In this document: piece after piece, positions 369 to 25,241 of the stretch
Layout: the number at the start of each line of letters is the position of its first letter
How positions within the stretch are numbered: the first letter of the stretch is position 1
Assembly (NCBI RefSeq): GCF_000247565.1
Contig: NC_016893.1
Coordinates: 60,001 to 92,000 of the forward strand
Direction of reading: 5' to 3'
Origin: Wigglesworthia glossinidia endosymbiont of Glossina morsitans morsitans (Yale colony)
Lineage (GTDB): Bacteria; Pseudomonadota; Gammaproteobacteria; Enterobacterales; Enterobacteriaceae
DNA: 32,000 nt
Position numbers and translations under genes: made by a program
The notes under the pieces: model-generated
What the model was told of the DNA's origin: nothing
What the model saw: the letters and a program-made list of their open reading frames with translations, nothing else
The model's database searches: none

Positions 369-1631
369 TTAAGCATACATATCTATTCTTGTATGATCTT
401 GATTAAAGATATACTGTATTTTATTTTTATAGATATTATCGTTTTCAATTTTATTCAAATTTAGCTGTTCTTTTTTATTTTTTTTTCTATCTTTATTAAA
501 TTCATTATTTTTTTCATTTAATCTATATTGATTTTGATTTTCTATGTTATTAAAAATGTTATCTGACTTGTAATGTAAAAAATCTTTTATAAAATGATTA
601 CTAATCATTGCACTATCTAATAATATACCGTTATCTAATAAAGATTTACGTAATTCTTCTAAAGAACTTTTTAAAACCCCTCTTACTTCTGAATGTTCAG
701 AAAATACATGTAATTTTAATTTACTTTTGTAAGATTTTAAAATAACGTTAATAGATCCCAGATTTTTCGGATGTATTTTAAATTCTAAGTGAAATACGCC
801 ATCTTTTTTAAAAAATGCAATTTTTTCTTTTACTAAATTCATCCAAGATTTTAAATCATCAAAATTTTTTATATATAATGTTTGAACAAAATTTTTCGAT
901 TCTGTAATGGAAGAAAATTCATTGGTATTCATATAATAAATATCTTGTAAATCAGATAAATTGTTAAATTTTTGATTTATATTTTTCTGTCGATTATCCT
1001 GATTAAAGTTTTCAAAAATCAATTCCAAATTTTTTTTAATTTCTATATTTTGATATGATTTTTCTATATTTTCATTTTTTAAATTAGAAATACATTTCTC
1101 AAATATGTTTTTATTTACTAAAAAAATTTTTTTGTTCTGTTTTAATTGAATATAATCATTTTGATCAATAGATAAAAAACAGCTTTTTGGTGATTGGTTT
1201 GCTGAGTTCAAATGATCTAAATCAAAATCTTTCGAAAAAATCAAATTTTGATTATTGTTGAAAATATAATTTTCTGAAAAATAATTTTCTAATATATCTT
1301 TTTTTATTTTTTTATTAAAATTTTTGTTTAACGTATTATCAATTTTAGAATTAAACAAGTTTTGAATGTCATTTTTAGACATACTAAAATTATATAATGT
1401 ATTATTTTCCTCGTTAAAATTTGATTTCTCAGTTTTTAAAATTTCTGAATCATTAAAATATTTTTGAACATTTTTTTCATCAAAAATTGAAGTATTAAAT
1501 TGATTAAAAAATGATTTTTCAAAAATATTTTTTAATATCTTTTTGAATTCTAATTTGTCTGTTATTTCTGGAATAACATTAATTACGTCTTGTATATTAT
1601 GTAGAATATTATCTTCATTCAAACATATCAA
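369..1631 (-). CDS. fliK: Flagellar hook-length control protein FliK
   Basis: It sits between fliJ and fliL. The C-terminal ~90 aa (HLEFKIHPKNLGSINVILKSYKSKLKLHVFSEHSEVRGVLKSSLEELRKSLLDNGILL) matches the FliK C-terminal (Flg_hook) switch domain. The N-terminal ~300 aa is N/K-rich and low in conservation, as expected for the ruler region. The start at 1631 is TTG, with AAAGGAG (1647..1641) 9 nt upstream. Confidence 0.8.
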   Translation of the reverse strand: MICLNEDNILHNIQDVINVIPEITDKLEFKKILKNIFEKSFFNQFNTSIFDEKNVQKYFNDSEILKTEKSNFNEENNTLYNFSMSKNDIQNLFNSKIDNTLNKNFNKKIKKDILENYFSENYIFNNNQNLIFSKDFDLDHLNSANQSPKSCFLSIDQNDYIQLKQNKKIFLVNKNIFEKCISNLKNENIEKSYQNIEIKKNLELIFENFNQDNRQKNINQKFNNLSDLQDIYYMNTNEFSSITESKNFVQTLYIKNFDDLKSWMNLVKEKIAFFKKDGVFHLEFKIHPKNLGSINVILKSYKSKLKLHVFSEHSEVRGVLKSSLEELRKSLLDNGILLDSAMISNHFIKDFLHYKSDNIFNNIENQNQYRLNEKNNEFNKDRKKNKKEQLNLNKIENDNIYKNKIQYIFNQDHTRIDMYA

Positions 1632-1751
1632 AATATTATACTCCTTTGGTATATTTTCTTAAATATAATTCGTCTATTTGCTTTTGTAAATTTTTATCTT
1701 GGAGAACTTTATGTGTTAAAATGCAACGTTTTTTTAAAATTGTGAACGCGT

Positions 1752-2087
1752 TTAGTTTATTTTTTTTTTTTTCCAATAATTTTTTGCTTTATTAAGTTGT
1801 AATTTATAATTATTTACTTCTTTATTATAATCAAAAATTAAATTATTTAAACATATAAGAAAAACTTGATAATTATGCCAAACATTTATTTCCAAACCGT
1901 ACTTTATCATATTTTCTTGTAAACTAAGTCGATATTCTTTTTCATATAAAATAAGCATATTTAATTTTTTAACTGATTCTTGATATAAATTGCAAGCTTG
2001 CATTAGTTGTACTGATGCTTGTTGAAAAGAGATTTTTGCATGTATTTTTAATATTTTAAAATTAAATTTTATATTCATGATGTTCAA
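1752..2087 (-). CDS. fliJ: Flagellar export chaperone/stalk protein FliJ. As sequenced the frame is truncated; the intact frame continues to 1636 after a +1 shift in a poly(A) tract.
   Basis: It sits between fliI and fliK. 'LNMLILYEKEYR' aligns with E. coli FliJ 'LKMLIDYQNEYR' at identical residue numbers (39-50) when the ATG at 2078 is used instead of the TTG at 2087. The sequenced frame stops at 1752 after 108 aa counted from 2078. See the fliJ finding for the 3' extension. Confidence 0.85.
   Translation of the reverse strand: MNIMNIKFNFKILKIHAKISFQQASVQLMQACNLYQESVKKLNMLILYEKEYRLSLQENMIKYGLEINVWHNYQVFLICLNNLIFDYNKEVNNYKLQLNKAKNYWKKKKIN
1760..1772 (-). repeat. A13 homopolymer (T13 on the plus strand) inside fliJ. 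This is the frameshift or candidate transcriptional-slippage site.
   Basis: Counted directly: positions 1760-1772 are all T on the plus strand, flanked by a1759 and c1773. The tract encodes W-KKKK, followed by a premature stop 2 codons later. Confidence 0.9.
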
Positions 2088-2100
2088 GTATATTCGTGTT

Positions 2101-3462
2101 TTAAGAAAATAATTTTTTTAATTGTTGATAAGATTCTTCATAAGAACATTTATCTTCTATATTTTGTTTTAAATATTGCATTAATTTAGGATAATTTTTT
2201 ATTGCTTCATCTAATATCGGATCATTACCAGAAGCATATGCACCTACTGATAATAGATCTTTATTTTTTTGATAACTCGATATCCATTGTTTAATTTGTT
2301 GTATATGAAAAAAATGTGATTTTTTTACTAAATTTGGCATAGCTCTACTAATAGAAGTTTCAATTTCTATAGATGGATAATGTCCAGACTCTGATAGTTG
2401 TCTAGATAGTATGATATGTCCATCTAAAATTGCTCGCGCAGCGTCCGCAATAGGATCTTGTTGATCATCGCCTTCTATTAAAACAGTATAAAAAGCTGTA
2501 ATAGAGCCGTGATTTTGTGTACCATTCCCAGTTTTTTCTACTAATTCGGACAATTTTGAAAAAACAGAAGGAGGGTATCCTTTAGTTGTAGGCGGTTCTC
2601 CGATAGCTAAACCTATTTCTCTTTGTGCCATTGCATAGCGAGTTAAAGAGTCCATAATTAATAAAACATGTTTGCCTTGATCTCTAAAATCTTCTGCAAT
2701 TCGAGTAGCATATACTGCACCTTGTATTCTTAACATCGGCGCAATATCAGCTGGAGCTGCAATTACTACAGATCTAGAAATTCCGTCTTTTTGTAAAATA
2801 TTTTCAATAAAATCTTTAACTTCACGGCCTCTTTCTCCAATTAATGCAACTACTATAATATCTGCTTCGGTATATCTAGCCATCATGCCAAGTAACATGC
2901 TTTTTCCTACACCAGATCCAGCAAATAATCCCATTCTTTGGCCTCTTCCTACAGTTATCAATCCATTAATAGCTCTAACTCCGACATCTAAAATTTTTGT
3001 AATTGGATCACGTAATAAAGGATTAATGGGATTAGTATACAAAGATTCTTTTCTTAATACTTTTGGTACTGGCATACGATCTAAGAATTGTCCAGAACTA
3101 TTTAACACTCTACCTAATAGTTCTGTACCTAATGGCAGTAATCTTGTAGAAATTTTTCCATTAATTAATTCTGGAGAATATACTTTAGCTCCCGGAAAGA
3201 TTCCATCTACATTTTCTAAAGGAATTACAAACAAGTTTTTTTCTTTAAATCCTACTACTTCGCATTCTACTTGGATGACGGATTTTTCAACATACTTTTC
3301 AATAATGCACGTTGATCCGATAGGAAGCTGCAAACCAGTTACTTCCATAATAATACCGGTTGCACGAACTAATTTGCCATATTGATAGTAATCAGGTAAA
3401 TTAGAAATCAAACTTTCTTGATTGCTAATTTTATCAATCCATTTTTTTAATTGTAGTGTCAT
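2101..3462 (-). CDS. fliI: Flagellum-specific type III export ATPase FliI
   Basis: 453 aa with Walker A GSGVGKS and Walker B LLIMDS, and F1/T3SS-ATPase-like sequence throughout. The ATGA overlap with the fliH stop (3459-3462) follows the usual fliH-fliI coupling. Confidence 0.97.
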
Positions 3463-4142
3463 TGAATATTATCTTTTTTTAGTATTTGACAAATATGATT
3501 CCATTTTGATTCCAATGTTGCATCAATTTCTCCATCTTCAGTAAGAATGCGGAATCCGCCGCGTAACAATTGACCGTCTCCTAAAAGACGCCATCCTTGA
3601 TTTTTAAAAGTTTCTCCAAAATACTCTTTTAATACATTTAAATCATCCGGATGAACATATAATCGTAAATCGTCTCCTAAAAAATTTTTTTCATGTAACA
3701 ATTTTCGAATTTCTTTTAAAAGTACTTTAGTATCACATATAGGTGATTTTTTTATTATTTTTTCTGATATTTGTAATGCAATTTGTATTATACGTGATGG
3801 TATTATAGCTTCTAGTCCTGATATACTAGATTTTAATTCTTTAATTAATTGTTCTATTTGAAATATTTTTTCTTTTTTTTTGATATTAAATTGATCTAAT
3901 CCTTGTTTTAAACCTTCTTTTAATCCTTGAAGATATCCGGATTCTTTGCCTGATTTATATCCGGATTCGAACCCTTTTTTTTGTGCAGTAGTAATTTTTT
4001 TTTTTGTTAGTTCTTCGACGTTTTCCTTGTTATGTAATATATTTTTTGAATTTTTTTCTTTATCTTGAGAACTGGAGAAATCTCTTACTAGCCACGTGGT
4101 CCAATCAGATTTTTTATAATTTTCAGACATAACTTTCTCCAT
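3459..4142 (-). CDS. fliH: Flagellar assembly protein FliH, regulator of the FliI ATPase
   Basis: 227 aa, placed between fliG and fliI. The C-terminal '[13 protein letters not shown]...[28 protein letters not shown]' matches E. coli FliH 'LRVHPDDLQRV...GWRLRGD..LHPGGCKV..DEGDLDASVATRW'. The more likely start is the second ATG at 4130 ([13 protein letters not shown]), which has GGAG (4139..4136) 5 nt upstream. The ORF-track start is 4142. Confidence 0.9.
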
Positions 4143-10932: not shown

Positions 10933-11850
10933 TCAAAAAAACTCATTATTATAACAATACGAAGAACAAAATTCTTTAAACTTTTCGTTGCAAATTTTAC
11001 ACTGAAGAAAAAGTACATTACATTTTTTTCTTGCGCAATTTTTATGTAAATAAGATTGATTAATTTTACACTGATGACAATAAGATACTATATTTATATT
11101 AGTATTTTCAAACAGACGTGCATCAAATACAAACATTTTACCTAAAAATTTTACAGCATATTTTTTTTTTCTCATATAATTAATATAATTTATAATACCG
11201 CCTTTTAAAAAAAATACATGTTCGAAATTATTTTGTATTAACCATGCGCTCGCTTTTTCGCATCTAATACCTCCTGTACAATATAAAACAATCTTTTTAT
11301 GCTGATAATTTTTGAGCGCCCTAGTCATGTTTGTTAATTGGTTTCTAAAAGTTTGTGCAGGCACATGTATTGAATTTTCAAAATGTCCTATTTCATATTC
11401 ATAATTATTTCTTACATCTACAATTAAGCAATTTTTGCTATTAGACATAGTGTTAAATTGTTTCACTGATATACATTTGCCTAATTTTTCTACATTAAAT
11501 TTAAAATTTTTAATACCATCATTTACAATATGAGGTCTAACTTTTACTTGTAATTTATAAAAAGATATTGAATGATCGTCAGTCGAAAAATTAAATTTTA
11601 CATTTTTAAAAATTGGATTTAATTCATATAAAAAATTTTTTAATATATATATATATTTTTTATATATATAAATCTGCGCGTTAATGCCTTCTTGAGCAAT
11701 ATAAATTCTTCCCAAGATTTTTAACTCTTTTAATTTATTCAGTAATATTAATTGTAATTTTTTTGGATTTTGAATGTGGAAATATCGGTAAAAAGATATT
11801 GTTTTCTTTTCTTTAAAAGTTAAACTAGATTTTATATTAATGTTTTTCAT
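10933..11850 (-). CDS. trhO: Rhodanese-domain tRNA uridine(34) hydroxylase TrhO (YceA, UPF0176)
   Basis: 305 aa. 'TISFYRYFHI', 'GRIYIAQEGINAQI', 'VDVRNNYEYEIGHFENS', 'KKIVLYCTGGIRCEKASAWL' and 'GGIINY' match E. coli YceA almost block for block. It has a Cys-rich C-terminal tail. Confidence 0.93.
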   Translation of the reverse strand: MKNINIKSSLTFKEKKTISFYRYFHIQNPKKLQLILLNKLKELKILGRIYIAQEGINAQIYIYKKYIYILKNFLYELNPIFKNVKFNFSTDDHSISFYKLQVKVRPHIVNDGIKNFKFNVEKLGKCISVKQFNTMSNSKNCLIVDVRNNYEYEIGHFENSIHVPAQTFRNQLTNMTRALKNYQHKKIVLYCTGGIRCEKASAWLIQNNFEHVFFLKGGIINYINYMRKKKYAVKFLGKMFVFDARLFENTNINIVSYCHQCKINQSYLHKNCARKKCNVLFLQCKICNEKFKEFCSSYCYNNEFF

Positions 11851-11964: not shown

Positions 11965-14469
11965 TTATTTTGATTTAAGTAAATTTTTTTTGGATTGTAA
12001 CCAAATTAAAAAATGTAACTTACTTAAAATTACAGGATCATTCAATATAAATAAGCGTTCAAAAATATCGAGATTTTTAATTCCTTTTAAAAAAATAATA
12101 TTTAAATACTTTTGTCTGTTGATTTCAATTAATTCAGAATGATTGTGTCGTGAATTTGCAAATGTTATAGCAAGTGCATTATACGCAGGATGTATAATAG
12201 CTTGAAAAAAACCATTTTTTAATAATCTTGATTGATTAATTTTAAAATATTTTTTAGTATTCACTAGTTCTTTTGGTGGTAAATATTCTTCAGGAATTAG
12301 AAATAAATTCAATTTTTTTAAAAATAAACCTATAGTCGAATAACTTGAATAAACAGAAATTAATGGCGACATAATCAACGCACTAAGAATAGGAATGAAC
12401 CAAAATAAATATTTAAAATTAATATAAAAAATTAATCCTAAGGTCCAAAAAATTCCAATTAATACTTGCGATAAATGATGCTTGAAAGCATCACGCCAAC
12501 TCGTGATTTCGTTGTTACGTTTTGGCGATTTCCACGTTATTGGACGTCCAATACATGCACTAAAAATAAAAAATGTATGACATACCATTTTAATCGGAGT
12601 AAAAAACATAGAAAATATTATTTCTAATAATATTGATAATATAAAACATTTAGCACCTCCAAATGGTTTTGAATTTTTGGAAATTATTAACGTTATACTA
12701 AATAACTTTGGTAAAAATAACAAAAATAAAGTTACAAAAAATAGTTCTGTAGCTATTTTTAAATACCAATAAGGAAAAAAATGAAAATAAGAGTTTATTG
12801 CAGAAATATATTGAAATTTAATATTATATATTATTTGTAATATTGTAGATAAAATTAAAAATGCAAACCAAAGCGGCGCTGATAAATACGACATCACTCC
12901 AGTTAAAAATACTATTCTATGCACTGGATGCAATCCTCTAACTAGAAATAATCTAAAATTCATTAAATTTCCGTAACACCATCTGCGATCTCGTTTTAAT
13001 TCATCTAATAAGTTAGGTGGTGGCTCTTCATAACTCCCAGGTATATCATATGCAATCCATACTCCCCACCCGGCACGACGCATTAGAGCGGCTTCAACAA
13101 AATCATGTGATAAAATTGATCCAGACAAAATTCCGCTTCCAGGAAGGGGGGCGAGAATACAATTTTTCATAAATGGTTGAATTCGAATAATAGCGTTATG
13201 TCCCCAATAATGTGATTCTCCTAATTGCCAAAAATGCATTCCAGCTGTAAATAAAGGAGTATATACTTGTGTTGCAAACTGATGATAACGTGCGTATAAA
13301 GTATTCATGCCTGAAGTTTTTGGAATACTTTGGATAATTCCTGCTTTAGGATTTGATTCCATTAATTTGACAAGATGAATAAGACAATTTCCGCTCATGA
13401 CACTATCTGCATCTAAAATAACCATATATGAGTATTTTTTACCCCATCTGCGGCAAAAATCATCAATATTTCCACTTTTTTGTTTTATACGTCTATGACG
13501 ACGTCGGTAAAAAATATTATTAAATCCCTTGGTTTCTTCACATAATTCTATCCAAGACTTTTGTTCTGAAACACAAATATCTGGATTGTAACTATCGCTT
13601 AATATATATATATCAAAAAATTTAATTTTTCCAGTAGCTATAATAGATTCATAAGTAGCTTTTAAACCTGCAAATACACGTTCAACATTTTCATTACAAA
13701 TCGGCATTAAAATCGCAGTTCGGTGGTGATGATTTAATTTTTTTTTAATATGATTGTTAGAAATATTAAATTTATCATTTTTTACACTTAATTGAATAAA
13801 TCCCATAAATGCAGTCCAAAAACTAGCTGAAACCCAAAAAAATAAAACAAAAAATAGTAATAATATTGTAGTATGTAATGTATATAAGATAATTTTTTCA
13901 GAATATTTTAAAAAACTATAATTGAAGTTATGAATTAAATTTATACAAGATAAATTTTGGTGTAATAAAATACTATTTAACTTGTATGATGCTATCGTAG
14001 TTTGTATTAAAATTAAAAGTAAAAATATATATCTTCTTGCAATACCTACAATTCTCCATTTTTCTAAATTACACTTTTTTTTATTCTTAAAAATAAATTG
14101 AAAAATTTTTTTTTTATTAAAAAGTTGTTTAAAAATTAATATGTAAGAATTAATTATCCATGGTGTTGGAGCAATACTAGAACGATTTACTTTAGGTGTA
14201 GATCGGATTAATGGACGATTATTGGAATCTTTTATCATTATTTTTGGAAAATTTATAATTTTTGGCCAAGCTAATTTAAGACGTTTTTTTACAGATGACA
14301 TCGTGATATCTTTCCAACAAAACATATTATATTTTTTATTTTTATTTTCGATTAAAGCACGATGTATGTAAAATAATCGTTTATAAGTGTATTTGTATAT
14401 CTTGTGAGTTAAAATATCAATTTTTTTATTTGAACACTTTAAAAGTTTTATATAACTTGTATTAAGCAA
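11965..14469 (-). CDS. opgH: Osmoregulated periplasmic glucan glucosyltransferase OpgH (MdoH)
   Basis: 834 aa, collinear with E. coli OpgH (about 847 aa). Matching blocks include '[24 protein letters not shown]', '[25 protein letters not shown]', '[13 protein letters not shown]', '[54 protein letters not shown]' and multiple TM segments. The start is uncertain: the ORF-track start at 14469 is TTG, and in-frame ATGs lie at codons 49 and 57. Confidence 0.95.
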
Positions 14470-14954
14470 AGTAAAATCTCGTCTAATTATTTTAGTTTAA
14501 AATTAATATAAATTAAAATTTCAATTTTTATATGTATTAAAATTTAAAATAATTTTTAATTATTCATAATGATAAATTTTTGATCTTTATAAGATATCTT
14601 TGAAAAATTTTATAAATTCATTTGAAAAAATTAAATATATTAAATATAATTGATTTATATCAAATATATAAATTTATTGAAACATATCATAGTTCATTAT
14701 ATAATAATAAATATAGTAATTTTACTACAATTTAGTTTATTAATTTTAAAAGGCAGAAGATCTTTAATATGAAATTTACTTATATTTAAATATTTTAAAA
14801 ATTTTTTCAGAATTATTTTATTTTCATTTTGAAAACTAAAAATTTATTTTTGATTGAAGCATATTTATTAGTTTAATAAAATAAATCAAGTATATATTTT
14901 ATACATAAAAAAATTGATTATATACTTTTTTAATCGTTATTTCATGTAAATATT

Positions 14955-18062: not shown

Positions 18063-19031
18063 ATGAAAAATACAAATATAGAAAAAAAATCTAATTTTTT
18101 GAAACAATTTAATACTAAAATTTTTGCCAATATAAAATCAAGCTTAATTAACAGCCAAAAATATTTTGGCAAAAAATTGTCTAACATTTTTCAATCTAAA
18201 CAAATAAATGAAACATTATTTAATGAAATTGAAACACATTTGTTAAGTTCTGATTTAGGAGTACAAACTACAAAAAAAATTCTTGATAGTTTAATAATCG
18301 AAAATAAAAAAAAAAATATTGTATGTTCTAATGAATTATATATTTTACTTAAAAAAGAAATTTTGAATATTCTAATTAAAGTGCAAAAACCAATTACTTT
18401 TAACAAAAAAATGCCATTTATTATTTTAATGGTAGGCGTAAATGGTGTAGGAAAAACTACTACTATTGTAAAAATGGCATATAAATACAAGTCAGAAGGA
18501 AAAAAAGTAGTAATAGTAGCAGGAGATACATTTCGTGCTGGAGCCATAGAACAAATAAAAATATTAGGAGATAAATACGATATTCCAGTAATTTATGATT
18601 ATTATAAATCTGATGCGGCTTCAATAATATTTATGGCAATTAATTATGCCAAAAAAAATAAAATTCAAATTTTAATTATAGATACTGCAGGAAGATTACA
18701 TAATAAAATTAATTTAATGAAAGAACTTAAAAAAATAGTACAAGTTATTAAAAAATTAGATTTTACAGCTCCGCATGAAACTATGATCGCTATTGATGCA
18801 CATACCGGTCAAAATACTATAAATCAGGTAAAAATTTTTAACAACATTATCGATATTAGCGGAATTACATTAACAAAATTAGACGGTACTGCAAAAGGTG
18901 GAGCAATTATTGGATTAGCGAATGAATTTCATATTCCTATTCGTTATATTGGATATGGCAAACATGTTCAAGATTTATACCAATTTCAATCTAGTACATT
19001 TGTAGAAGCATTATTTTCTCAAAAAAAATAA
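18063..19031 (+). CDS. ftsY: Signal recognition particle receptor FtsY, NG domain only
   Basis: 322 aa. 'PFIILMVGVNGVGKTTTI.K', 'AGDTFRAGAIEQ', 'IDTAGRL.NK..LM.ELKKI', 'TKLDGTAKGG' and 'IPIRYIG.G' are SRP-GTPase G1-G5 motifs. Only about 15 residues precede the N domain, whereas E. coli has an acidic A domain of about 195 aa. Confidence 0.95.
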   Translation: MKNTNIEKKSNFLKQFNTKIFANIKSSLINSQKYFGKKLSNIFQSKQINETLFNEIETHLLSSDLGVQTTKKILDSLIIENKKKNIVCSNELYILLKKEILNILIKVQKPITFNKKMPFIILMVGVNGVGKTTTIVKMAYKYKSEGKKVVIVAGDTFRAGAIEQIKILGDKYDIPVIYDYYKSDAASIIFMAINYAKKNKIQILIIDTAGRLHNKINLMKELKKIVQVIKKLDFTAPHETMIAIDAHTGQNTINQVKIFNNIIDISGITLTKLDGTAKGGAIIGLANEFHIPIRYIGYGKHVQDLYQFQSSTFVEALFSQKK

Positions 19032-23416: not shown

Positions 23417-24463
23417 TTAATTTATTATTTTTAATATTTTTTTTACTGGTGCTGGTATTCCAATTTTGGGTGGATTATTTAATTTATACCAAATAAATTC
23501 TTTTCCGAAAAAAGATTCTTGTATATGGTTTTTTACAATTATTTTAATTGGTATAATATATAAATTTAGATTACATAGTCTATGTCTTATATTTTTCATT
23601 TTTTCTATAGAATCTATTTGAATTTTTTTGATATTTAACCAAATAAATAATAATTTTCGACAACTAAAATAAGGAAAACAAAATAGATCTTTCCAAATTT
23701 TGGATGATGTTTGATGTTGTAATAAAATTGACTGATTACTTTTTTTAATTAATATTAAATTCCATATTTCTATGTTAGAAATACAATATTTTTTTACTTT
23801 TTTTAATAAACTAAAATCATTAAAAGATTGATTAATGTATGTTTTACAATTCATGCTTATCGGGCATATTAAACATTTTGGATGATGTTTAGTACAAATT
23901 TGTGAACCAAGATCCATGATGCCTTGATTAAAATTACCGCAATTTTTTTCAGGCATAATTTTTTCGAGATATTTCCAGAAGTATTTTTCTCTTTTTTCAG
24001 AATATACAATAGATAGATATCTGCTAAATAATCTTTTGACATTTCCATCTAATATTGGATATTTTTTATCGTATACTGACGATAATATTGCACCTGCAGT
24101 AGAACGTCCTATTCCTGGAAATTTTAGTAAAATGTAAAAATCTTTTGGAAATTTACCATTAAATTCATTTTGAATAATTTGACTTGTTTTATATATATTA
24201 CGTGCTCGTGCATAATATCCTAGCCCAGACCATAAATGTAAAATATGATCTAAAGAAGCTTGAGATAATGAATAAATGTTTGGATATTTTTTAATAAATT
24301 TACTGAAGTAAATTTTTACTTTTTTTACTTGAGTTTGTTGTAACATAATTTCTGATATCCAAACTTTATAAATTGTTTTATTTATTTGCCAAGGTAAGTT
24401 TTTCCTGCCGAATGCTTGATGCCAAAATAATATTTTAGAAGAAATAGTTAAAATGTTTTTCAT
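23417..24463 (-). CDS. mutY: Adenine DNA glycosylase MutY
   Basis: 348 aa. 'LPWQ....YKVWISEIMLQQTQV' and 'W.GLGYYARARN' match. The HhH element is 'LPGIGRSTAGAILS'. The 4Fe-4S ligand set C-x6-C-x2-C-x5-C is 'CTKHHPKCLICPISMNC'. A C-terminal NUDIX-like domain is present. Confidence 0.95.
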   Translation of the reverse strand: MKNILTISSKILFWHQAFGRKNLPWQINKTIYKVWISEIMLQQTQVKKVKIYFSKFIKKYPNIYSLSQASLDHILHLWSGLGYYARARNIYKTSQIIQNEFNGKFPKDFYILLKFPGIGRSTAGAILSSVYDKKYPILDGNVKRLFSRYLSIVYSEKREKYFWKYLEKIMPEKNCGNFNQGIMDLGSQICTKHHPKCLICPISMNCKTYINQSFNDFSLLKKVKKYCISNIEIWNLILIKKSNQSILLQHQTSSKIWKDLFCFPYFSCRKLLFIWLNIKKIQIDSIEKMKNIRHRLCNLNLYIIPIKIIVKNHIQESFFGKEFIWYKLNNPPKIGIPAPVKKILKIIN

Positions 24464-25241
24464 ATATGATTTAAAAATGTTTTAAATAATAAAAATTATA
24501 AATTTTACTAAAATAAAATTCTGATTTATCACATGAAAAAAAAATAATCATGTTCGTATTTTTGTTACACTTCGATGACAATTAAAAGAAAATAAAATTT
24601 TAATTTTATATGAATATTAAAAAATATACATTTTATTAAAGATAGCTTTTCACTGATGAAAATCTTTTAAAAGAATATTAATAATTATAATCTAATTTGA
24701 TTTTAAATAAGCAATATATTTGATGAAAATTTTTAGAAAATTTAAAAAAATTTTAGTTTTAGTATATTTTTTTAAAATTTTATTTTTAAAGTTAATTACG
24801 ATTAAAAAAAATAAAATTTATTCGGATATATCAAATTTTTTGAAAAAACATTAAAATTTATTGATAAAAATCACATTATATCATAAATCAAATACTTCTT
24901 ATTAGGTTCTTTTAGTAAATTTTGATGTCATAAAAAATAATTTTTAAAAAATTATTTATTCAAAATTTATATTAAAAATCAATTTTAAAAATTTTTTAAT
25001 TTATACTATAAATTTAGAATTTTAAATGAACTATGTATAATGTAACACTTAAAAATTTAAAATTATCCCCCTGTATTATTCGCAAAGCTAACATGTAATA
25101 AAACTTCAGATTATCTCTATCAATAAAAAAATTTAACCTATACTTTTATAGTAATTATTGAAATAAAAATTTAAAAAATTTTTAATGATGAAAAAAATTA
25201 ATTGCGTAATTTTATTTGTAATAAATACGTAGAAAAATACA

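What the first reader, a model, noticed from the sequence alone, without database searches (positions are those of the whole stretch)
1636..2087. fliJ is interrupted at a 13-A homopolymer; one extra A restores a full-length 147-aa FliJ
As sequenced, fliJ reads ...NYW-KKKK-IN-stop, with the stop at 1752-1754. That is 108 aa from the ATG at 2078, and a 120-nt apparently non-coding gap follows before fliK.

I translated the minus strand downstream of the A13 tract (1772..1760) in the frame reached by inserting one A. It stays open for 41 more codons: N-KLNAFTILKKRCILTHKVLQDKNLQKQIDELYLRKYTKGV-stop, with TAA at 1638..1636.

Four points support this frame as the real one:
- The total becomes 147 aa, which is the length I recall for E. 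coli FliJ.
- The new tail aligns without gaps to the E. coli FliJ C-terminus as I remember it. W(R/K)(E/K)KK..L.A...L..R matches early on, and QK.(M/I)DE...R matches near the end.
- It ends 5 nt before the fliK TTG start.
- It places the fliK Shine-Dalgarno (AAAGGAG, 1647..1641) inside the fliJ tail, the usual operon geometry.

The gene is therefore one of three things: a very recent pseudogene, an assembly or homopolymer sequencing error, or a gene rescued by RNA-polymerase slippage on the poly(A) tract. Slippage rescue has been described for frameshifted genes in Buchnera and Blochmannia. FliJ is needed for efficient flagellar type III export, so which of these holds matters for whether the apparatus works.
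Basis: partly seen in the sequence, partly recalled or inferred. Interest (0 to 1): 0.8.

Follow-up and report, generated by a model that had tools for sequence, protein, structure and literature searches.

The report
Poly(A)-frameshifted fliJ kept alive in Wigglesworthia
The flagellar export gene fliJ of the tsetse-fly symbiont Wigglesworthia is broken by a run of 13 A's, but its out-of-frame tail is still conserved like a working gene in three lineages, so full-length protein is most likely made by polymerase slippage on the A-run, a rescue already known from other insect symbionts.

Summary
The window is Wigglesworthia glossinidia from Glossina morsitans (WGM). On the minus strand, fliJ meets an A13 run at 1772..1760 and stops at 1754..1752, giving 108 aa. 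One extra A gives a 147-aa protein that covers the whole Pfam FliJ model and aligns without gaps to Salmonella FliJ.

New here:
- Two other Wigglesworthia assemblies are also out of frame at the same site, with different run lengths (A12 and A10).
- The basal G. brevipalpis symbiont has an intact 150-aa fliJ, with the run interrupted by GAG.
- The 40-codon tail stays open in all four lineages. Its dN/dS is 0.08-0.35, as low as in intact neighbouring flagellar genes.
- None of 18 other A/T runs of 9-11 nt in these loci breaks a frame.
- No restart codon and no frameshift-stimulating hairpin is conserved.

Best explanation: a long-standing frameshift that is tolerated because slippage on the A-run, mainly by RNA polymerase, yields some full-length FliJ. 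This was inferred, not measured.

This is a new member of a known kind (Buchnera and Blochmannia poly(A) frameshifts; Shigella spa13). The truncation itself was already published as a pseudogene. Interest is moderate.

The parts
1752..2078 (-). fliJ 5' reading frame as sequenced (108 aa plus stop), identical to NCBI 'flagellar FliJ family protein' of W. glossinidia
   Evidence: Pfam FliJ 44.3 bits, model positions 2-87 only.
1760..1772 (-). A13 homopolymer (T13 on the + strand), the frameshift and slippage site. Together with T1759 it makes a 14-nt spacer between the conserved Trp codon and the conserved KLNAF codons, where intact relatives have 15 nt.
   Evidence: Orthologous tracts are A12 (L001), A10+GAC (L002) and A6-GAG-A6 in frame (L003).
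1752..1754 (-). Premature TAA stop reached in the unshifted frame
1636..1761 (-). fliJ 3' tail in the -1 frame: N, then 40 codons, then TAA at 1638..1636. It encodes the C-terminal part of the FliJ helix. It is open in all four Wigglesworthia lineages and under purifying selection.
1641..1647 (-). AAAGGAG Shine-Dalgarno of fliK, lying inside the fliJ tail
   Evidence: sequence read; 9-nt spacing to the TTG at 1631
369..1631 (-). fliK (420 aa, TTG start), the downstream gene, intact
   Evidence: P0003, 100% identity, Pfam Flg_hook
2101..3462 (-). fliI (453 aa), the upstream gene, intact. Used to fetch orthologous loci.

Best explanation
fliJ of the Glossina morsitans Wigglesworthia really does carry a 1-nt deficit inside a lysine-codon poly(A) run: a 14-nt spacer instead of the ancestral 15.

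Most transcripts, read literally, give a 108-aa FliJ that lacks the last ~40 residues of its second helix. RNA polymerase slips on the 13-A run, so part of the mRNA pool carries 14 A's. Translating those mRNAs gives the canonical 147-aa FliJ, which ends just before the fliK start. Ribosome sliding on the AAA-lysine codons may add to this.

This partial rescue has been enough for selection to keep the tail intact across lineages whose tracts sit in different wrong frames.

Shown here: the frameshift, the homology of the tail, its conservation pattern, and the intact state in the basal lineage.

Inferred, not shown: that corrected mRNA and full-length protein exist, and that RNA polymerase rather than the ribosome or DNA heterogeneity is the main source.
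For: 1. The repaired protein is a full FliJ.
- Pfam 67.6 bits over the whole model, TIGR02473 above its cut-off.
- Gap-free alignment of residues 31-141 to Salmonella FliJ 3AJW residues 34-143, running across the junction.
- Outgroups all have 5 residues between the conserved W and [KR]L[NQ]A, exactly what +1A gives.
- The 5-residue repairs score 7-8 bits better than the 4-residue repairs in all three lineages.

2. The site is frameshifted in three independent assemblies. The spacer is 14 nt in WGM, 13 nt in L001 (Logan assembly of SRR14633898) and 13 nt in L002 (MAG JAVBJL01). It is 15 nt and in frame in the G. brevipalpis symbiont, where GAG interrupts the run. The FliI tree is (WGB,(L002,(L001,WGM))), so the fewest changes put the out-of-frame state before the L002/WGM split (dS about 0.5-0.8).

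3. The tail is under purifying selection.
- dN/dS is 0.08, 0.24 and 0.35, against 0.36-0.43 for the fliJ head and 0.04-0.60 for fliF, fliG, fliH, fliI and fliK. Its dS equals that of the neighbours.
- Placing the observed substitutions at random gives no stop and as few amino-acid changes in only 0.6-1.4% of trials.

4. Miscalling of homopolymers is not general. Eighteen other A/T runs of 9-11 nt in these loci are all in frame, the L002 tract is only A10, and fliJ is the only homopolymer-split gene in the 32-kb window.

5. The gene is transcribed. Its transcript is more abundant in bacteriomes of female than of male G. morsitans (PMC8166097). Flagella are made by the milk-gland population of this symbiont (PMC3280448). 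The flanking genes fliD, fliS, fliF-fliI and fliK are intact.

6. There is precedent. Poly(A) frameshifts in Buchnera and Blochmannia give 12-50% corrected transcripts (PMC5009743, PMC3017870). Shigella spa13, the FliJ-equivalent stalk, shows about 55% slippage, and Citrobacter tssM1 (A11) 20-25% (PMC4256274, PMC7762205).
Against: - No RNA or protein data were available, so corrected transcripts and the 147-aa protein are unobserved.
- The selection tests rest on only 7-30 substitutions in 120 nt.
- WGM was Sanger-sequenced from MDA-amplified DNA pooled from about 1000 flies, so a length error at an A13 run cannot be excluded for this genome alone.
- The two sister lineages need +2 (or -1), not +1. 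Rescue there would be less efficient, or would give a product one residue shorter.
- Baranov et al. 2005 inferred from run statistics that transcriptional slippage may not operate in W. glossinidia (PMC1088944).
- FliJ loss is not fully lethal to flagellar export in model organisms (my own knowledge), so a truncated or absent FliJ might be tolerated.
Confidence: 0.6

Rival explanations
1. Homopolymer length error. The true WGM genome has 14 (or 11) A's, and fliJ is an ordinary intact gene.
For: - A13 is the longest run in the window.
- WGM was assembled from Sanger reads of MDA-amplified, cloned DNA, and each of these steps can change run length.
- The tail looks fully functional.
Against: - Two other independent assemblies are also out of frame at the same site, one with a run of only A10.
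- Eighteen other runs of 9-11 nt in the same loci are in frame.
- No in-frame 147-aa variant exists among 5.8 billion clustered proteins.
Confidence: 0.1
2. DNA-level tract heterogeneity from replication slippage, resembling phase variation. The polyploid symbiont population carries a mix of A12, A13 and A14 genome copies. In-frame copies supply FliJ, and the consensus merely happens to be out of frame.
For: - Tract length differs between close lineages (A13 vs A12 at dS about 0.2), showing that the run mutates fast.
- This would also explain conservation of the tail.
- It is compatible with pooled-fly sequencing.
Against: - All three consensus sequences are out of frame. That is unexpected if in-frame copies were favoured and common.
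- Assemblies run through the site as single contigs.
- It could not be tested directly here.
Confidence: 0.12
3. Ribosomal frameshifting or sliding on the AAA-lysine codons, rather than RNA polymerase slippage, produces the full-length protein.
For: - A_AAA_AAA is a classical -1 slippery heptamer.
- WGM needs exactly a -1 shift.
- Ribosome sliding on poly(A) lysine runs is documented (my own knowledge).
Against: - No stable or conserved downstream hairpin: MFE -1 to -4 kcal/mol, no better than shuffled sequence.
- The sister lineages need the opposite shift (+1 or -2).
- Precedent in insect endosymbionts and in secretion-system genes is transcriptional.
Confidence: 0.1
4. True pseudogene or truncated gene. 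The tail is never translated, and the symbiont lives with a 108-aa FliJ or none, as annotated by Rio et al. 2012.
For: - Published annotation as a pseudogene.
- The head retains the residues discussed as binding regions (PMC8166097).
- Genome erosion is ongoing in this symbiont.
Against: - The tail is open in all lineages, while the other frames are full of stops.
- dN/dS is 0.08-0.35, with a normal dS.
- The random-placement probability is 0.006-0.014.
- It would need three independent, very recent inactivations at one site.
- No restart codon exists for a separate tail peptide in L001 or L002.
Confidence: 0.08

Closest known systems
Poly(A)-tract frameshifted genes of Buchnera aphidicola and Blochmannia, rescued by transcriptional slippage (Tamas et al. 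2008 PNAS; Wernegreen et al. 2010 MBE; as summarised in PMC3017870 and PMC5009743)
   Same: - An AT-rich obligate insect endosymbiont.
- A single small indel inside a run of 10 or more A's made of lysine codons.
- The gene is otherwise intact.
- The frameshift is shared or persistent across lineages, with purifying selection downstream.
- An interrupted tract in a sister genome goes with an intact frame, as described for Blochmannia dnaX.
   Different: - A different symbiont genus and gene.
- Three lineages carry different wrong-frame lengths at one site.
- mRNA heterogeneity has not been measured in Wigglesworthia.
- One earlier analysis even doubted that slippage occurs in this species (PMC1088944).
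Shigella flexneri spa13 (SctO, the injectisome stalk equivalent to FliJ) and mxiE, mxiA, spa33 slippage sites (Penno et al. 2005/2006, as cited in PMC4256274 and PMC7762205)
   Same: A type III secretion stalk protein whose production involves RNA polymerase slippage on a homopolymer. The reported efficiency for spa13 is about 55%.
   Different: - A pathogen plasmid gene with shorter runs, regarded as part of normal expression.
- No sequence-level relation to this tract was tested.
- In Wigglesworthia the site looks like a by-product of AT pressure on a KK(D/E)K motif.
Citrobacter rodentium tssM1 (A11 run; PMC4256274)
   Same: A run of A's just upstream of a premature stop. Slippage adds A's and yields 20-25% full-length protein alongside a truncated form.
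   Different: - A type VI system.
- Both forms were shown to be required there; nothing comparable is known here.
Salmonella FliJ (PDB 3AJW) / Pfam PF02050 / TIGR02473
   Same: The repaired 147-aa product aligns gap-free to 3AJW residues 34-143, has the same length, and lies in the same position between fliI and fliK.
   Different: - The gene as encoded in DNA lacks the last ~40 residues.
- Sequence identity to the solved protein is low.
- A high-confidence structure was not obtained (single-sequence model pLDDT 65).
E. coli dnaX programmed -1 ribosomal frameshift (A AAA AAG)
   Same: A lysine-codon slippery sequence and a -1 direction in WGM.
   Different: - No upstream Shine-Dalgarno or downstream hairpin stimulators were found.
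- The sister lineages need a different shift.

Membership tests
FliJ (PF02050 / TIGR02473) | Profile match above the curated cut-off across the whole model | tested here: met
   The repaired protein scores 67.6 bits in Pfam (cut-off 28.4) over model positions 2-123 of 123, and 54.8 bits for TIGR02473 (cut-off 50.45). As encoded in DNA, the protein scores 44.3 bits over 2-87, and falls below the TIGR02473 cut-off at 37.8.
FliJ (PF02050 / TIGR02473) | Gene located between fliI and fliK in the fliE/fliF-K cluster; length about 147 aa | tested here: met
FliJ (PF02050 / TIGR02473) | Two-helix antiparallel coiled-coil fold | tested here: inconclusive
   Sequence alignment to 3AJW is gap-free. The single-sequence AlphaFold model shows a helical hairpin with a turn at residues 61-62, but pLDDT is 65 overall and below 50 in the tail.
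Endosymbiont poly(A) frameshift rescued by transcriptional slippage (Tamas 2008 / Wernegreen 2010 type) | Frameshift is a 1-2 nt length change inside an A/T homopolymer of about 9-10 nt or more | tested here: met
   A13, with a 14-nt spacer against the ancestral 15
Endosymbiont poly(A) frameshift rescued by transcriptional slippage (Tamas 2008 / Wernegreen 2010 type) | Gene otherwise intact: the downstream frame is open to the orthologous stop, with no other lesions | tested here: met
Endosymbiont poly(A) frameshift rescued by transcriptional slippage (Tamas 2008 / Wernegreen 2010 type) | Frameshift persists across lineages, with purifying selection downstream of it | tested here: met
   Three lineages are out of frame. 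Tail dN/dS is 0.08-0.35, and the simulation gives P of 0.006-0.014. Substitution counts are small.
Endosymbiont poly(A) frameshift rescued by transcriptional slippage (Tamas 2008 / Wernegreen 2010 type) | Heterogeneous mRNA pool containing frame-corrected transcripts | not testable with these tools
   No read-level RNA data are accessible. The gene is known to be transcribed (PMC8166097).
Endosymbiont poly(A) frameshift rescued by transcriptional slippage (Tamas 2008 / Wernegreen 2010 type) | Genomic tract length verified at read level; full-length protein detected | not testable with these tools
   Only assemblies were available.
Programmed -1 ribosomal frameshift site (dnaX type) | Slippery heptamer plus a conserved stimulatory element (downstream structure or upstream SD) | tested here: not met
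   A heptamer is trivially present. Downstream folds are -1.0 to -4.4 kcal/mol with z-scores of -0.9 to +1.7, and are not conserved. The required shift differs among lineages.
Phase-variable contingency locus (DNA slipped-strand mispairing) | Tract length varies within a population and switches the gene on and off | not testable with these tools
   Between-lineage variation is seen (A13, A12, A10). Within-population variation cannot be assessed from assemblies.

The most novel reading that the evidence does not exclude
The out-of-frame poly(A) run may be a maintained expression device rather than a tolerated lesion. It would fix a ratio of short (about 106-108 aa) to full-length FliJ, or make FliJ supply depend on the physiological state of the extracellular, flagellated milk-gland population. 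That would parallel slippage-dependent expression of the equivalent stalk protein Spa13 in Shigella, and the two-form requirement of TssM1 in Citrobacter. If so, slippage-controlled stalk proteins would be a convergent theme in type III systems.
Probability: 0.1. Interest if true: 0.7.

Novelty: new member of a known kind. Interest (0 to 1): 0.45.

Why it matters
Wigglesworthia is thought to need its flagellar apparatus to pass from mother to larva through the milk gland, and blocking that transmission is one idea for tsetse control.

Whether the G. morsitans symbiont has a working FliJ decides whether its export apparatus is complete. The gene has been listed as a pseudogene, and a later transcriptome paper flagged it as unresolved. 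The evidence here argues that it should be treated as functional, like the single-indel poly(A) genes of Blochmannia.

It also gives a compact test case: three lineages, three tract lengths and one intact outgroup. This can be used to measure how much slippage rescue is enough for selection to hold a gene. It can also test the earlier claim that slippage does not operate in this species.

Tried and rejected
- **Independent restart of the tail as a separate peptide.** Only WGM has an in-frame TTG (1776). L001 and L002 have no ATG, GTG or TTG in the open stretch upstream of the tail. Rejected.
- **Stimulated ribosomal frameshift.** No stable or conserved hairpin lies downstream.
- **Conservation of the tail as fliK leader RNA.** This does not explain the excess of synonymous changes in the FliJ frame, or the stops in the other frames.
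- **Search for more strains.**
  - Protein searches with repaired FliJ and with FliK each returned only WGM and one Logan assembly.
  - Looking up P0001 found no contig on record.
  - A metagenome scan with a conserved tail 25-mer found nothing.
  - A literature search for the origin of the MAG found nothing useful. The tsetse hosts of L001 and L002 therefore remain unknown.
- **Structure prediction.** The single-sequence prediction of the repaired protein had too low a confidence to use.
- **Papers not available.** Tamas 2008, Wernegreen 2010 and Table S1 of Rio 2012 were not held, so their content is cited only through papers that summarise them.
- **Scan for other split genes.** A generic scan for homopolymer-split genes in the window gave only gene-junction artefacts besides fliJ.

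Full report
**What is in the sequence**

The window has 24.7% G+C. Its fliJ product is identical to an NCBI protein of Wigglesworthia glossinidia found on a contig of 719,535 bp. That is the chromosome size published for the Glossina morsitans symbiont, WGM (PMC3280448).

On the minus strand the genes run fliF, fliG, fliH, fliI, fliJ, fliK. A fliE-sized ORF and intact fliS and fliD lie beyond them.

fliJ starts at ATG 2078 and reads ...NYW. It then enters 13 A's (1772..1760) and ends KKKK-I-N-TAA at 1754..1752, giving 108 aa. A 120-nt gap follows before the fliK TTG at 1631.

Adding one A gives W-KKKK-N-KLNAF...TKGV-stop, with TAA at 1638..1636 and 147 aa in all. The fliK Shine-Dalgarno AAAGGAG (1647..1641) lies inside this tail. 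The only correction is that the spacer between the tail stop and the TTG is 4 nt.

**Is the tail really FliJ?**

- The repaired protein matches Pfam FliJ over the whole model (67.6 bits, positions 2-123 of 123). The truncated form scores 44.3 bits and stops at position 87. The tail alone maps in register to positions 88-123.
- Only the repaired form passes the NCBIfam equivalog cut-off.
- Residues 31-141 align without a gap to residues 34-143 of solved Salmonella FliJ (3AJW), straight across the junction.
- FliJ from Sodalis, Yersinia, Proteus, Pectobacterium, Cedecea, an Escherichia sp. and a Salmonella enterica locus all show W-x5-[KR]L[NQ]A[FW]...QK.MDE. The +1A repair gives exactly five residues at x5.
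- Repairs that give four residues score 7-8 bits lower in all three lineages.

**Relatives**

- A Logan assembly (L001, run SRR14633898; FliI 97.8% identical) has A12 at the same site, giving WKKKK-stop and 106 aa.
- A metagenome-assembled Wigglesworthia (L002, JAVBJL01; FliI 92%) has A10 followed by GAC and is again out of frame, at 109 aa.
- The G. brevipalpis symbiont (L003, BA000021; FliI 77%) has TGG AAA AAA GAG AAA AAA AAA TTA AAT GCA TTT. This is in frame and gives an intact 150-aa FliJ.
- The spacer between the conserved Trp codon and the KLNAF codons is 14, 13, 13 and 15 nt respectively.
- The FliI tree is (WGB,(L002,(L001,WGM))).

The fewest changes therefore place an out-of-frame state before the split of L002 from WGM and L001, followed by a further length change. 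Because such runs mutate quickly, this parsimony argument is only suggestive.

**Selection on the tail**

The 40 tail codons are open in all four lineages. The other two frames carry 2-7 stops.

| Comparison | Tail dN/dS | Counts (syn / nonsyn) | fliJ head dN/dS |
|---|---|---|---|
| WGM-L001 | 0.08 | 5 / 2 | 0.36 |
| WGM-L002 | 0.24 | 12 / 18 | 0.38 |
| L001-L002 | 0.35 | 9 / 17 | 0.43 |

These values are Nei-Gojobori estimates. The intact neighbours fliF, fliG, fliH, fliI and fliK range from 0.04 to 0.60.

Tail dS (0.26, 0.88, 0.57) matches the neighbours (0.21-0.28 and 0.44-0.80). The tail is therefore evolving at the normal silent rate while amino-acid changes are held down.

Placing the observed substitutions at random sites gives no stop and as few amino-acid changes in only 1.4%, 0.65% and 0.95% of trials. 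The substitution counts are small, but the three comparisons agree.

**Rivals**

*Sequencing error.* WGM was Sanger-sequenced from MDA-amplified, cloned DNA pooled from about 1000 flies. An error at A13 is therefore conceivable for that genome. It would, however, have to recur at the same site in two other assemblies, one with a run of only A10. Meanwhile 18 other runs of 9-11 nt in the same loci are in frame. fliJ is also the only homopolymer-split gene in the 32-kb window.

*Separate tail peptide.* Only WGM has a start codon in the tail frame.

*Programmed ribosomal frameshift.* No stable or conserved downstream structure exists. The lineages also need different shifts: -1 in WGM, and +1 or -2 in the others. 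Unstimulated ribosome sliding on AAA codons cannot be excluded and may contribute.

*DNA-level heterogeneity.* Variation in tract length within the polyploid symbiont population cannot be tested from assemblies. It remains a real alternative or a co-contributor.

*Dead pseudogene.* This fits the published annotation but not the conservation of the tail.

**Mechanism proposed**

AT pressure turned an ancestral lysine-rich motif into an uninterrupted A run in the morsitans-side lineages. That motif reads KKDKR in a Salmonella enterica locus, QQKKQ in Sodalis and KKEKK in WGB.

Replication slippage then changed the length of the run. RNA polymerase slippage on the run produces a mixed mRNA pool, and part of it has the 15-nt spacing and encodes canonical FliJ. 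This step is inferred from precedent:
- 12-50% corrected transcripts in Buchnera and Blochmannia (PMC5009743; PMC3017870);
- 20-25% at the A11 run of Citrobacter tssM1, and about 55% at Shigella spa13 (PMC4256274).

Spa13 is the injectisome counterpart of FliJ (PMC7762205).

WGM needs +1 A. L001 and L002 need +2 for the canonical spacing, or -1 for a product one residue shorter.

**What is already known**

According to PMC8166097, Rio et al. 2012 classed WGM fliJ as a pseudogene because of truncation. Rio et al. remarked only in general terms that frameshifts in homopolymeric tracts might be corrected during transcription or translation.

Medina Munoz et al. 2021 (PMC8166097) found the gene (WIGMOR_RS00305) more highly expressed in female than in male G. 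morsitans bacteriomes, and said its function merits investigation.

I found no statement that the break lies in a poly(A) run, that the tail is intact, or that sister lineages share the state. I could not read Table S1 of Rio 2012.

Baranov et al. 2005 argued from run statistics that slippage may not occur in W. glossinidia. That argument assumes effective selection against runs, which is doubtful in a symbiont under drift (my inference).

**Verdict**

The most likely reading is a long-tolerated poly(A) frameshift with slippage rescue. I put confidence in that mechanism at about 0.6, and at about 0.8 that the tail is expressed in frame by some route.

This is a new member of a well-described kind, in a gene whose truncation was already on record. 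The comparative pattern and the parallel with Spa13 make it a good, cheap experimental case, but specialists would not find it surprising. Interest is 0.45.

Noticed in passing
window 3995-4005 (minus strand, fliH); L001 3074-3084; L002 3460-3468: fliH carries an in-frame A11 run. It has the same length in WGM and L001, and is A9 in L002. If polymerase slippage operates, this run should produce a fraction of truncated FliH. It is a natural internal control for slippage measurements.
   Followed up: partly
window 18306-18316 (+ strand, ORF 18063-19031): There is an in-frame A11 run inside an SRP54-type GTPase gene (FtsY-like by Pfam). T10 runs also lie in frame at 11161-11170 (rhodanese/UPF0176 gene) and at 14106-14115 (834-aa glycosyltransferase family 2 gene).
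   Followed up: partly
window 369-1631 (fliK) and orthologues in L001 and L002: fliK evolves fast, with dN/dS of 0.31-0.60 among the three close lineages. This agrees with the value of 1.05 reported between WGM and WGB by Rio et al. 2012.
   Followed up: partly
window 14470-14954 and 24464-25241: Two unusually long stretches (485 and 778 nt) have no ORF of 45 aa or more, no tRNA and no Rfam match. The whole 32-kb window has no tRNA or Rfam hit. They may be decayed genes or long regulatory spacers.
   Followed up: no
L003 5831-5834 versus window 1631-1638: In the G. brevipalpis symbiont the fliJ stop overlaps the fliK GTG start (GTGA). In the WGM clade the tail ends 4 nt before a TTG or GTG start, so the junction geometry has changed between lineages.
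   Followed up: no
L003 5544-5553 and 5700-5708: The intact WGB fliJ itself contains an in-frame A10 run (FLKKKMK) and an A9 run at the orthologous site. It is therefore also exposed to slippage, though its frame is correct.
   Followed up: no
window 23417-24463 (minus strand): A 348-aa ORF with HhH-GPD and NUDIX_4 domains (MutY-like adenine glycosylase) is intact. The repair-gene content of this symbiont is relevant to homopolymer instability but was not examined further.
   Followed up: no
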